Shown here: piece by piece, positions 1,589 through 2,347 of the stretch
Numbering within the stretch: the first letter of the stretch is position 1
Layout of the letters: the number at the start of each line of letters is the position of its first letter
UHGV virus genome: UHGV-2165603
Direction: 5' to 3' (one strand)
Origin: a virus
DNA: 10,026 nucleotides
The notes under the pieces: model-generated
Databases searched by the model: none
What the model saw: the letters and a program-made list of their open reading frames with translations, nothing else
Told to the model about the DNA's origin: nothing
Translations under genes and position numbers: made by a program

Positions 1589-2347
1589 TTAAATTCTGGT
1601 CCTTACAATATCAACCTGAAGATTCTTATCTTGTGCTGATTGATAAATGACAAACCTTTTACTACCTGCATTGAAAGAAGTAGACAAAACCAGACAATTA
1701 TCATAACGAGCAAGAACATAATACCAACCATCATTATAATTAATCATTTCATATTCTTTCTTAAACTGCGGTTTGTAATATCCTGTCAGAAATGAAAAAA
1801 GCCAGAAATATGCCACAAAAGCAATCATCACAATCTCAAAAAAATGTTTTTTTATAAATGGCTTATCATAGAAGCATGATACCGATAAAAATCGCCCATA
1901 AGATCTTATCGAAATTGTAACCGCCAGCGCAATCGCTGCTGACAGTAGCAAAAGAGGTACCTGAATCTTCTGTCTCAATATAGAAAACTCAATAATTGCC
2001 GGCACAAACAATAATTCCACAGCAAAATAAAGGCGAAATACATTTAGCTCTTGCATAGAATGTTTTCTTTTCACTGCGAAAAAGAATACAACACCAATAC
2101 CCCAACCGATAAGAAATATAGCAATGACGATAACTGCAAAAAATAAACTTCTGGCAACATCATCAACACCTGCACCTACAATCCACCATGGGAAGCCGTA
2201 GTAAAAAGAAGTACCCCATCCATAGAAATAAGCACTCCCCCATCCAAGGCATCCCATGTAGGCAATAAAAAGTGAAGAACTCCTGAGCAGCGCACCATCC
2301 TTCATAACCACCCCAATACAAGATGATAACATTGGCTTACAACTCAT
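1589..2347 (-). CDS. Polytopic inner-membrane protein of unknown function, AT-rich moron between Q/pR' and the lysis cassette
   Basis: 252-aa ORF with ATG at 2345-2347 and stop TAA at 1589-1591. About 5-6 long hydrophobic, aromatic-rich segments and a ~55-aa hydrophilic C-terminus. Noticeably lower G+C than the flanking Q and S genes. A better SD (GGGGTGG) precedes the internal Met15 at 2303-2305, so the true start may be 2305. Confidence 0.65.
   Translation of the reverse strand: MSCKPMLSSCIGVVMKDGALLRSSSLFIAYMGCLGWGSAYFYGWGTSFYYGFPWWIVGAGVDDVARSLFFAVIVIAIFLIGWGIGVVFFFAVKRKHSMQELNVFRLYFAVELLFVPAIIEFSILRQKIQVPLLLLSAAIALAVTISIRSYGRFLSVSCFYDKPFIKKHFFEIVMIAFVAYFWLFSFLTGYYKPQFKKEYEMINYNDGWYYVLARYDNCLVLSTSFNAGSKRFVIYQSAQDKNLQVDIVRTRI

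What the first reader, a model, noticed from the sequence alone, without database searches (positions are those of the whole stretch)
1589..2347. AT-rich polytopic membrane protein moron between Q and the lysis genes (the position Shiga-toxin phages use for stx)
A 252-aa protein with about 5-6 aromatic-rich transmembrane segments and a hydrophilic C-terminal domain sits where lambda has only the 6S leader. Its G+C is visibly lower than Q and S. Cargo at this site is typically lysogenic-conversion or phage-exclusion functions. I do not recognise the family.
Basis: partly seen in the sequence, partly recalled or inferred. Interest (0 to 1): 0.6.

Follow-up and report, generated by a model that had tools for sequence, protein, structure and literature searches.

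The report
Orphan membrane-protein cargo gene after Q

Summary
An intact minus-strand ORF runs 2347..1589, at 36% G+C against about 51% for Q, S and R. It lies between a lambda-type Q/pR'/qut module and an S21-type holin.

Homologue alignments move the start to M15 (position 2305), giving 238 aa. The predicted product has five transmembrane helices and a roughly 55-residue C-terminal beta domain, inferred to be periplasmic.

The family is already catalogued as Pfam PF27470 'TfpB', PHROG 1521 and PGAP 'STM1630 family'. The protein is 100% identical to phage 434 gene 68. It is a full-length homologue of the Moraxella pilin-inversion ORF tfpB and of Salmonella STM1630.

It leads a 1.45-kb AT-rich cassette: tfpB, a DUF3927/TciB-like gene, then a terminator. 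The cassette is:
- shared with phage 434;
- absent from HK97-type phages that carry the same Q;
- dispensable, since it lies inside the segment replaced in phage 434B;
- under purifying selection (dN/dS 0.05-0.09).

A promoter-like motif, CTTGAC-N16-TGTTA, accompanies the gene in prophages, LT plasmids and pathogenicity islands. Homologues follow at least three kinds of Q gene. Others lie beside eltAB, sseJ/steB, cdtABC and an RTX-type exporter.

No defence, lysis or solved-structure relative was found. The 'moron' reading is supported, the biochemical function is unknown, and interest is moderate.

The parts
2585..3208 (-). Lambda-type late antiterminator gene Q
   Evidence: PF03589, E 4e-58. 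It is 95-96% identical at DNA level to Q of HK97, mEp234, HK446 and related phages.
2514..2542 (-). Late promoter pR' with the embedded qut (Q-utilisation) site: TTGACT-17-GAAACT
   Evidence: The position was mapped from the 'promoter' and 'lambda Qut-like site' features annotated in phage mEp234. The sequence was read. Homology to HK97-type phages ends near 2499.
2439..2464 (-). Degraded counterpart of the terminator that phage 434 annotates upstream of its gene 68. It also marks the left end (2466) of the cassette shared with 434.
   Evidence: The 434 hairpin folds at -13.3 kcal/mol. The window's equivalent folds at -4.6 kcal/mol and forms no stem before the T-run.
2343..2373 (-). Conserved promoter-like motif: C-TTGACG, 18-nt spacer ending in TGt, then TATGAG. 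It overlaps the first ATG of the 252-aa ORF.
   Evidence: CTTGAC-N16-TGTTA is invariant upstream of the gene in seven otherwise unrelated contexts (alignment A3). It occurs exactly once, just upstream of the gene, in each of the 12 Escherichia-type loci and in none of the other 23 fetched. Chance expectation in the window is 0.02.
1589..2305 (-). tfpB/STM1630-family gene, 238 aa from M15. The maximal ORF runs to 2347; PGAP and the phage 434 record start at M6.
   Evidence: Supported. A purine-rich stretch, GGGGTGG (2308-2314), precedes the ATG at 2305.
1345..1503 (-). 52-aa DUF3927 / TciB-like small membrane protein; second gene of the cassette
   Evidence: PF13064, E 3e-14. PHROG 1470 'TciB-like'. 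Annotated TciB in phage 434.
1130..1158 (-). Strong intrinsic terminator that closes the cassette (8-bp, 7 G-C stem, then T8)
   Evidence: Found by the terminator scan. Folds at -16.4 kcal/mol. Conserved in phage 434, which annotates a terminator there.
936..1046 (-). Scar of a deleted nanS-p (SASA esterase) gene: the first 26 nt and the last ~72 nt of the CDS remain (plus ~15 nt downstream of its stop within 936-1020)
   Evidence: Window 1046-1021 matches the 5' end of the 434 nanS-p gene, and 1020-936 matches L002 8081-8167 at its 3' end.
761..789 (-). Second terminator-like hairpin, just upstream of the holin
   Evidence: -16.2 kcal/mol.
508..723 (-). Class II (S21-type) holin
   Evidence: PF04971, E 3e-32. 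PGAP annotates a 216-nt gene.
11..508 (-). Endolysin (phage lysozyme)
   Evidence: PF00959, E 1.5e-45.

Best explanation
Window 2305..1589 encodes a 238-aa inner-membrane protein of the TfpB/STM1630 family (Pfam PF27470, PHROG 1521). It is identical to gene 68 of coliphage 434.

It is the lead gene of a 1.45-kb AT-rich cargo cassette: tfpB, a DUF3927/TciB-like mini-protein, then an intrinsic terminator. The cassette sits between the Q-pR'-qut module and the lysis genes. Relative to phage 434, the nanS-p gene that followed it has been deleted here.

Shown:
- The gene is real and under purifying selection.
- It is absent from phages that carry the same Q.
- It is dispensable for phage growth.
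- It recurs as the first gene after at least three different kinds of Q gene.
- It also occurs without any phage, on LT plasmids, in pathogenicity islands, at a fixed Salmonella/Citrobacter locus, in the Moraxella pilin-inversion segment, and as stable chromosomal genes in Pasteurellaceae.

Inferred:
- It is a moron with its own sigma-70-type promoter, so a lysogen can make it without Q. Q-modified polymerase from pR' would also read through it late in infection.
- In this prophage the hairpin that 434 places before the gene is destroyed. Constitutive pR' transcripts may therefore run through the cassette and stop at the 1158-1130 terminator, leaving the lysis genes dependent on Q.
- The topology is N-terminus in the cytoplasm, five transmembrane helices, a conserved aromatic belt on the periplasmic face, and a small periplasmic beta domain. 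No catalytic signature is conserved.

From this I infer that the protein works by binding a conserved envelope component. On this view it is a lysogen-benefiting (conversion-type) envelope or host-adaptation factor, not a lysis, virion or enzymatic function.
For: Identity and family:
- PHROG 1521, E 2e-154.
- 100% identical to 434 gene 68.
- PF27470 is recorded on every homologue.
- hhalign against M. bovis TfpB gives 99.65% probability, E 5e-25, over 227 columns.
- The M. bovis copy lies between inverted pilin fragments. The M. lacunata copy lies beside piv.

Cargo status:
- G+C 36% against 51% in the neighbours.
- The cassette 2466..1021 is 97.9% identical to phage 434, where it is attached to a Q82-type Q.
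- mEp234 and HK97-type phages with a 95-96% identical Q/pR' have only 434 bp between Q and the holin.
- The cassette lies in the region replaced in the viable phage 434B.

Own regulatory signals:
- CTTGAC-N16-TGTTA is invariant upstream of the gene in three prophage types, the ETEC plasmid and a pap island, while the surrounding DNA is unrelated.
- The terminator folds at -16.4 kcal/mol.
- The 434-type upstream hairpin is lost here.

Recurrent position after Q:
- Lambda-type Q in the window; Q82-type in 434.
- A 221-aa Q in strains WY517-2 and STEC435.
- A PF06530 Q in Yersinia enterocolitica.

Cellular rather than phage-cycle role:
- dN/dS 0.05-0.09.
- Kept at the sseJ locus in three Salmonella subspecies, and at the syntenic Citrobacter rodentium locus.
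- Two paralogues at fixed housekeeping sites in Aggregatibacter actinomycetemcomitans.
- STM1630 is co-regulated with the SPI-2 cluster. It is less expressed in strain D23580 than in 4/74 during macrophage infection, and D23580 carries two SNPs in its -10 box.

Topology and fold:
- The positive-inside count places the 79-91 and 138-156 loops in the cytoplasm.
- The second model has pLDDT 79.6 and pTM 0.72.
Against: - No transcript or protein data exist for the E. coli or phage 434 gene. The promoter call rests on conservation only, and its -10 hexamer (TATGAG, TATGTA or TACTTA) lacks the usual final T.
- Deleting STM1630 changed neither growth in LB nor replication in macrophages.
- A hypermotility phenotype from a cassette-insertion screen is not among the phenotypes reported with clean deletions.
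- Being the first gene after Q in several lineages could instead point to a late-infection role.
- The read-through-from-pR' idea depends on terminator prediction alone.
Confidence: 0.55

Rival explanations
1. It is a superinfection-exclusion or other anti-phage membrane protein. Made by the lysogen, and strongly at the start of late transcription, it would sit in the inner membrane and block DNA entry or abort infection by other phages.
For: - The architecture (small polytopic inner-membrane protein with a periplasmic domain) and the position (a prophage moron with a promoter-like motif and a terminator) are typical of exclusion genes.
- The gene is dispensable for the phage itself.
- It is common in prophage-rich EHEC/STEC genomes, with a median of 2 copies per genome that carries it.
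- In Moraxella it lies inside the locus for type IV pili. By general knowledge, not a result obtained here, these pili are a common phage receptor.
Against: - No PADLOC hit at E <= 0.1.
- Selection is strongly purifying and the N-terminal half is almost invariant across genera. This is unlike arms-race proteins.
- The gene is inherited stably at fixed chromosomal sites in Salmonella subspecies, Citrobacter rodentium and Aggregatibacter actinomycetemcomitans, not turned over as defence islands usually are.
- The Salmonella member is co-regulated with the SPI-2 virulence cluster.
Confidence: 0.2
2. It is an accessory factor for neighbouring secreted or surface virulence proteins (toxins, effectors, pilins). 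It would act as a membrane chaperone, adapter or release factor, by analogy with the TfpY/FimB-like pilin accessory proteins.
For: Homologues lie next to:
- eltAB on ETEC plasmids;
- sseJ and steB in Salmonella;
- cdtABC in Glaesserella parasuis, and an HlyB/HlyD-type exporter in Mesocricetibacter;
- the pilin genes within the Moraxella invertible segment.

The prophage copy occupies the interval that Stx phages use for stx. TfpY-like proteins show that small inner-membrane proteins with periplasmic domains can assist pilin assembly (PMC11841053).
Against: - The neighbours use unrelated export routes and are usually divergent from or convergent with the gene, not co-transcribed with it.
- Many copies have no such neighbour: the window itself, phage 434, and loci in Aggregatibacter actinomycetemcomitans, Pasteurella and Conchiformibius.
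- The adjacency may only reflect shared residence in AT-rich acquired islets, or decayed Q-S regions. tRNA-Arg, Rz and iss remnants flank some copies.
- The architecture differs from TfpY: five transmembrane helices and a 55-residue beta domain, against three helices and an alpha/beta domain.
Confidence: 0.12
3. It is a late-infection or lysis accessory protein, for example a regulator of holin timing or of membrane state. On this view it sits first in the late operon for that reason.
For: - It lies immediately downstream of Q/pR' and in the same orientation as S and R, in at least four prophage lineages.
- It is a membrane protein, and it is paired with another small membrane protein.
Against: - Phage 434B lacks it and still forms plaques.
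- HK97-type phages with the same Q do without it.
- Many homologues have no lysis genes nearby.
- No similarity to holin, antiholin or spanin families.
- A strong terminator separates it from S.
Confidence: 0.07
4. It is a chance or decaying ORF with no function in this prophage.
For: - Some copies are pseudogenes: strain C7 (frameshifted), CFT073 and FEX669.
- The M. lacunata copy is truncated.
Against: - The window copy is intact and 100% identical to the copy in a plaque-forming phage.
- dN/dS is 0.05-0.09.
- 679 E. coli records carry it at >= 99% identity.
Confidence: 0.02

Closest known systems
Coliphage 434 gene 68 (CPT_434_68, 'putative membrane protein', OL657226)
   Same: The protein is 100% identical. 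The same cassette (tfpB, TciB-like gene, terminator) is 97.9% identical in DNA. It sits in the same place, directly after the late antiterminator.
   Different: In 434 the cassette follows a Q82-type Q and an intact terminator hairpin, and is followed by an intact nanS-p esterase gene. Here it follows a lambda-type Q, the upstream hairpin is degraded, and nanS-p is deleted.
TfpB of Moraxella bovis / M. lacunata (the ORF inside the type IV pilin inversion segment; source of the name of Pfam PF27470)
   Same: It is a full-length homologue: hhalign 99.65%, E 5e-25, 25% identity. It shares the A-Y-x-Y-G-W-G ... G-Y-P-W-W motif and the C-terminal YY-[IV]-L beta domain.
   Different: The Moraxella gene lies between two inverted pilin gene fragments next to piv, not in a prophage. 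The M. lacunata copy is truncated. Its function is not known to me either; my recollection of the 1990-91 papers could not be checked here.
Salmonella STM1630 (SL1344_1560 / SL1560)
   Same: 46% identical, 238 aa, same architecture. PGAP labels some E. coli homologues 'STM1630 family protein'.
   Different: It is a fixed chromosomal gene between sseJ and steB, not a prophage gene. It is co-regulated with SPI-2. Promoter SNPs inactivate it in ST313. Its deletion changed neither growth in LB nor replication in macrophages. Transposon insertions in it are nearly absent, which the authors suggest may reflect H-NS occlusion at such A+T-rich loci (sseJ, SPI-2).
Classical lambdoid morons and Q-S cargo (lambda bor and lom, stx in Stx phages, nanS-p, nmpC in DLP12)
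   Same: It is an extra, compositionally distinct gene. It is present in some relatives and absent from others, has a promoter-like element and a terminator, and sits in the Q-S interval.
   Different: It has no known phenotype and no sequence or fold relation to any of them. Only two sequenced phages carry it (434 and 2B8, three records), and no phage record matched outside these two, so none annotated as an Stx phage does. It can share a late region with the tRNA and nanS-p genes typical of Stx phages.
TfpY/FimB-like pilin accessory proteins (Pseudomonas aeruginosa, Dichelobacter nodosus; PMC11841053)
   Same: These are small inner-membrane proteins of about 235-245 aa, with N-terminal transmembrane helices and a periplasmic C-terminal domain. 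They are encoded beside pilin genes, as Moraxella tfpB is.
   Different: TfpY-like proteins have three transmembrane helices and a larger alpha/beta domain. This family has five helices and a 55-residue all-beta domain. Sequence relatedness was not tested. The window's host context has no pilin gene.

Membership tests
Pfam PF27470 TfpB / PHROG 1521 / 'STM1630 family' | Significant full-length sequence similarity to family members, including the name-giving Moraxella TfpB | tested here: met
   PHROG 1521, E 2e-154, residues 31-252 against profile 1-222. PF27470 is precomputed on the 100%-identical P0001 and on all 103 hits. hhalign against M. bovis TfpB gives 99.65%, E 5e-25. The local Pfam-A copy lacks this model.
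Pfam PF27470 TfpB / PHROG 1521 / 'STM1630 family' | Length of about 230-260 aa, with five predicted transmembrane helices and a short C-terminal beta domain | tested here: met
   AlphaFold models. Distant members are 230-262 aa with matching hydrophobic blocks.
Pfam PF27470 TfpB / PHROG 1521 / 'STM1630 family' | Conserved N-terminal aromatic/glycine motif (A-Y-x-Y-G-W-G ... G-[FY]-P-W-W ... A-R-S-L) and C-terminal W-Y-Y-V-L / F motif | tested here: met
   Invariant or near-invariant columns A25, Y26, Y28, G29, W30, G37, W40, A51, R52, Y195 and F218.
Moron (extra transcription unit in a phage genome) | Present in some closely related genomes and absent from others at the same position | tested here: met
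   mEp234 and HK97-type phages with 95-96% identical Q/pR' have 434 bp between Q and the holin, against 1,861 bp here. The cassette is shared with 434 behind a different Q.
Moron (extra transcription unit in a phage genome) | Base composition distinct from the flanking phage genes | tested here: met
   36.4% G+C (third positions 31%) against 45-51% in ninG, ninI, Q, S and R.
Moron (extra transcription unit in a phage genome) | Own promoter | tested here: inconclusive
   CTTGAC-N16-TGTTA is invariant in all Escherichia-type contexts, including ones with no phage. The -10 hexamer is imperfect and no transcript data are available.
Moron (extra transcription unit in a phage genome) | Own terminator | tested here: met
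   A predicted intrinsic terminator at 1158-1130 (-16.4 kcal/mol, T8), conserved in and annotated in 434. This is a prediction only.
Moron (extra transcription unit in a phage genome) | Expressed from the repressed prophage | not testable with these tools
   Needs RNA or protein data from lysogens.
Known anti-phage defence or superinfection-exclusion proteins | Sequence similarity to a catalogued defence protein | tested here: not met
   PADLOC-DB, 0 families at E <= 0.1.
Known anti-phage defence or superinfection-exclusion proteins | Exclusion phenotype on expression | not testable with these tools
   Needs plaque assays.
Phage lysis proteins (holin, antiholin, spanin, endolysin) | Similarity to a lysis protein family, and obligatory linkage to and requirement for lysis | tested here: not met
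   No Pfam hit, while the window's S and R match their families strongly. Many homologues lack lysis neighbours. Phage 434B lacks the gene and is viable.
TfpY/FimB-like pilin accessory proteins | Three transmembrane helices plus a periplasmic alpha/beta domain; gene adjacent to the major pilin gene | tested here: not met
   The model has five helices and a five-strand beta domain, against the description in PMC11841053. There is no pilin gene in the window; only the Moraxella members are next to pilin genes. A direct sequence comparison was not done.

The most novel reading that the evidence does not exclude
TfpB-family proteins are an uncharacterised class of portable inner-membrane factors with no detectable solved-structure relative. 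Each travels as a single gene with its own promoter, through phage late regions, toxin and effector islets and pilin switches of animal-associated Proteobacteria. They would act on one conserved envelope machine, for example by blocking phage DNA entry or by tuning a secretion, pilus or envelope-remodelling system. The repeated adjacency to LT, CDT, an RTX-type exporter, SseJ/SteB and pilin genes would then be functional rather than incidental.
Probability: 0.2. Interest if true: 0.65.

Novelty: already known. Interest (0 to 1): 0.35.

Why it matters
The gene is very common. A DNA-level relative is present in 22% of complete E. coli genomes, often in two copies, and it is concentrated in EHEC/STEC prophages. 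It is also found on ETEC LT plasmids and throughout Salmonella enterica. No function, partner or fold relative is known for it.

This work links four previously separate orphans into one family with a shared architecture and, in Escherichia, a shared upstream motif:
- phage 434 gene 68;
- Moraxella tfpB;
- Salmonella STM1630;
- the ORF next to LT on ETEC plasmids.

That gives a tractable starting point, because phage 434 and K-12 genetics are available. If the protein turns out to exclude phages or to alter the envelope in the host, it would be a widespread new lysogenic-conversion function. If it has no phenotype, it is one more selfish passenger of the Q-S hot spot.

Tried and rejected
- **Local profile libraries.** The local Pfam-A, NCBIfam and PADLOC scans gave no hit for the protein. 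The family name came only from precomputed annotations.
- **RNA genes.** Rfam and tRNA scans of the window found nothing, so there are no Stx-phage-type tRNAs here.
- **A structured leader or canonical tR' between pR' and the ORF.** The fold of 2510-2306 is no better than shuffled sequence (z = -0.41).
- **LT-II flanks.** I expected the LT-II prophage papers to describe this gene as a toxin-flanking gene. They describe a lysozyme-like upstream ORF instead.
- **The name 'TciB'.** Text searches for 'TciB' first led to Trypanosoma papers. The name derives from phage P1 tciABC, and P1's CRISPRi map scores all three as nonessential.
- **The name 'TfpB'.** 'TfpB' in Acinetobacter is an unrelated ATPase.
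- **STM1630 hypermotility.** The phenotype came from a cassette-insertion screen. It is not among the altered phenotypes reported with clean deletions, so I did not use it as evidence of function.
- **The small ORF after DUF3927.** It differs in frame between the window and 434 and I treat it as doubtful.
- **The CII-site annotations in the 434 record.** These are consensus matches, and the motif is not conserved in the distant contexts.
- **The 1990 Moraxella paper.** An attempt to read it by PubMed id failed.
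Full report
**Observation**

The window is the late-regulatory and lysis end of a lambdoid prophage, read on the minus strand. The gene order is NinB (8748-9200), an adenine methyltransferase (8224-8751), NinG, the NinI phosphatase, Q (2585-3208), the ORF in question (1589-2347), a 52-aa DUF3927 gene (1345-1503), an S21-type holin (about 508-723) and a lysozyme (11-508).

The ORF is intact. It is markedly AT-rich: 36.4% G+C and 31% at third codon positions. Q, S and R are 49.5-50.8%. Phe, Tyr and Trp make up 21% of the residues.

Of 33 aligned full-length homologues, 31 start at the residue matching M15. A conserved non-coding motif overlaps the first ATG. The real start is therefore most likely 2305, giving 238 aa. 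PGAP and the phage 434 record use M6.

The gene is under purifying selection. dN/dS is 0.05-0.09 in pairs not saturated at synonymous sites, both within Escherichia and among Salmonella subspecies.

**What it is**

The local Pfam-A, NCBIfam and PADLOC libraries give no hit. PHROGs places the protein in PHROG 1521, of unknown function (E 2e-154).

The protein database returns 103 relatives, all carrying a precomputed Pfam label PF27470. The context tool names that family 'TfpB'. PGAP calls some E. coli homologues 'STM1630 family protein'. One GenBank entry reads 'protein tfpB'.

The protein is 100% identical to gene 68 of coliphage 434, annotated 'putative membrane protein'.

The name comes from Moraxella.
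- In M. bovis, a 261-aa homologue lies between two inverted pilin gene fragments.
- In M. lacunata, a truncated copy lies between piv plus a pilin fragment on one side and a full pilin gene on the other.
- A profile comparison gives 99.65% probability, E 5e-25, over 227 columns.

The family is small: 71 clusters at 50% identity among 1.84 billion proteins. All named members come from animal-associated Enterobacterales, Pasteurellaceae, Neisseriaceae and Moraxella.

**Anatomy of the protein**

With a 44-sequence alignment, AlphaFold gives pLDDT 79.6 and pTM 0.72. The model has five long helices (10-36, 47-79, 88-111, 116-137, 155-181) and a five-strand beta domain (184-235).

Counts of Lys+Arg across the family put the N-terminus and the loops 79-91 and 138-156 in the cytoplasm. 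That places the highly conserved aromatic loop (G-F-P-W-W ... D-D-V-A-R-S) and the C-terminal domain in the periplasm. This topology is an inference.

Across the widest alignments, the conserved residues are almost all aromatic, Gly, Ala and Pro. No acidic or His residue is invariant.

**Anatomy of the locus**

Q and the DNA down to about 2499 are 95-96% identical to HK97, mEp234, HK446 and related phages. The mEp234 record annotates a lambda-like pR' and qut site. These map to window 2542-2514.

In mEp234 only 434 bp separate Q from the holin. Here the distance is 1,861 bp.

The extra DNA is a cassette, 2466..1021. It is 97.9% identical to phage 434, where it follows a Q82-type antiterminator. 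It contains tfpB, the DUF3927 gene and a strong intrinsic terminator at 1158-1130 (-16.4 kcal/mol). The DUF3927 gene belongs to PHROG 1470 'TciB-like', a name taken from phage P1, where tciB is nonessential.

The cassette ends in the first 26 nt of nanS-p. The remainder of that gene, apart from its last ~72 nt, is deleted.

Phage 434B replaced this whole region with DLP12 DNA and still forms plaques. The cassette is therefore dispensable (PMC9119081).

**Regulatory signals**

The motif CTTGAC-N16-TGTTA lies just upstream of the gene. It reads as TTGACG, an 18-nt spacer ending in TGt, then TATGAG.

It is invariant in seven contexts whose remaining upstream DNA is unrelated. These are the window, phage 434, E. 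albertii, an Escherichia sp. att-lambda remnant, the ETEC LT plasmid, the WY517-2 prophage and a pap pathogenicity island. It occurs once in each of those loci and in none of the non-Escherichia loci. Chance expectation in the window is 0.02.

I read it as the gene's own promoter, but this rests on conservation only.

The hairpin that 434 annotates as a terminator upstream of gene 68 folds at -13.3 kcal/mol. It is degraded in the window (-4.6 kcal/mol, no stem). The leader 2510-2306 folds no better than shuffled sequence.

Lambda pR' is constitutive; this is established knowledge that I did not test here. If the same holds for this prophage, pR' transcripts may run through the cassette and stop at 1158-1130. 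The cassette would then be expressed in lysogens while S and R stay dependent on Q. This is an inference from predictions.

**Contexts elsewhere**

Homologues are the first gene after Q in four contexts covering at least three kinds of Q gene:
- the lambda-type Q of the window;
- the Q82-type Q of 434;
- a 221-aa Q in strains WY517-2 and STEC435, the latter in a late region with tRNA-Ile/Arg, nanS-p, DUF1378 and DUF826;
- a PF06530 Q in Yersinia enterocolitica.

Other copies have no phage around them:
- about 870 bp upstream of, and divergent from, eltAB on ETEC plasmids;
- between sseJ and steB in Salmonella, which is STM1630, conserved in subspecies enterica, diarizonae and arizonae;
- at the syntenic Citrobacter rodentium locus, next to lpxR;
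- in ExPEC islands next to tRNA-Arg, Rz and iss remnants, which look like decayed Q-S regions;
- in a pap island;
- convergent with cdtABC in Glaesserella parasuis, and next to an HlyB/HlyD-type exporter in Mesocricetibacter;
- as two paralogues at fixed housekeeping sites in Aggregatibacter actinomycetemcomitans.

A DNA-level relative is present in 1,197 of 5,426 complete E. coli genomes. In 679 records it is >= 99% identical, and the median is two places per genome that has any. Only phage 434 and phage 2B8 (three of 50,697 phage records) encode it.

**What is known about relatives**

STM1630 is co-regulated with the SPI-2 cluster (PMC2639726). It is less expressed in strain D23580 than in 4/74 during macrophage infection, and two SNPs in its -10 box inactivate it in ST313.

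Its deletion changes neither growth in LB nor replication in macrophages. A hypermotility phenotype from a cassette-insertion screen is not among the phenotypes reported with clean deletions.

It almost lacks transposon insertions in a TraDIS library. For sseJ and the SPI-2 genes in the same table, the authors suggest H-NS occlusion rather than essentiality.

No functional data were found for Moraxella tfpB or for the phage 434 gene.

**Interpretation**

Three points argue for a function that serves the cell in the host rather than the phage cycle, carried out by binding a conserved envelope component:
- the deep conservation of the periplasmic-face motif;
- stable inheritance at non-phage loci;
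- co-regulation of STM1630 with the SPI-2 virulence cluster in Salmonella.

I give this reading 0.55. Identity and cargo status are near certain; the mechanism is weakly supported.

Superinfection exclusion (0.2) remains a live alternative because the architecture and position fit it. An accessory role for neighbouring toxins, effectors or pilins (0.12) is suggested by the neighbours, but orientation and inconsistency weaken it. A lysis role (0.07) is contradicted by 434B, by HK97-type phages and by the copies with no phage nearby.

**Verdict**

The finding is real and correctly interpreted, but it concerns an already catalogued family and a gene identical to one annotated in phage 434. The open question is its function.

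The links drawn here make the gene a reasonable, moderately interesting target. They connect phage 434 gene 68, Moraxella tfpB, Salmonella STM1630 and the ORF next to LT, together with the conserved upstream motif and the recurrence after different Q genes. It is not a surprise to a specialist.

Noticed in passing
window 5769-7541 (+): A second AT-rich (34.8% G+C) cargo ORF of 590 aa lies on the opposite strand inside the nin region, between an HNH endonuclease and NinE. It matches PHROG 9230 (unknown function), has no Pfam or NCBIfam hit, and PGAP calls it hypothetical (WP_000612803.1). The N-terminus is rich in Ser and Thr, and there are several hydrophobic stretches.
   Followed up: partly
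window 5394-5452 and 5225-5592: A perfect (AAATAG) x 9.8 hexanucleotide repeat lies in the ~490-bp gap between the HNH-endonuclease ORF (ends 5280) and the 590-aa ORF (starts 5769). The surrounding 5225-5592 is 72-75% similar to DNA beside IS elements on the ETEC LT plasmid (L003) and in a pap island (L035). This suggests an insertion scar related to an IS element.
   Followed up: partly
window 4828-4837: A run of 10 N (an assembly gap) splits an HNH/AP2-type endonuclease gene into two ORFs (4444-4788 and 4882-5280). RefSeq relatives carry a single 567-nt gene here.
   Followed up: partly
window 936-1046: A scar of the nanS-p (SASA carbohydrate esterase) gene. Only its first 26 nt and its last ~72 nt (plus ~15 nt past the stop) remain, compared with the intact gene in phage 434 (L002 6302-8152).
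   Followed up: yes
window 866-1264 (+): PGAP annotates a 132-aa ORF on the plus strand here (WP_033816266.1). It spans the cassette terminator and the nanS-p deletion scar and has no credible family hit. It is probably a spurious call.
   Followed up: partly
window 1099-1209 (-) and L002 6060-6248: The small ORF after DUF3927 is annotated in 434 as a 62-aa membrane protein. A 1-bp indel puts it in a different frame in the window, so it is doubtful as a gene. The conserved feature there is the terminator hairpin.
   Followed up: yes
L009 (JAIITD010000172.1): A 3-kb contig binned as 'Veillonella sp.' encodes a TfpB protein 100% identical to the window's and the same NinI-Q-tfpB gene order as this E. 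coli prophage. It is almost certainly a mis-binned contig.
   Followed up: no
L041 (Citrobacter rodentium) and L002 2708-3667 (phage 434): The lipid A deacylase gene lpxR lies next to the TfpB homologue in C. rodentium. In phage 434 it lies two genes upstream of gene 68. The C. rodentium locus is syntenic with the Salmonella sseJ-STM1630 locus (ADH, MCP and LysR genes downstream).
   Followed up: no
L016 4955-7017; L014 4888-8454: In Glaesserella parasuis the TfpB homologue is convergent with cdtABC. In a Mesocricetibacter metagenome-assembled genome it abuts an HlyD/HlyB-type exporter pair (ABC transporter with a C39 peptidase domain). It is unclear whether this adjacency to toxin loci is more than co-residence in acquired islets.
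   Followed up: partly
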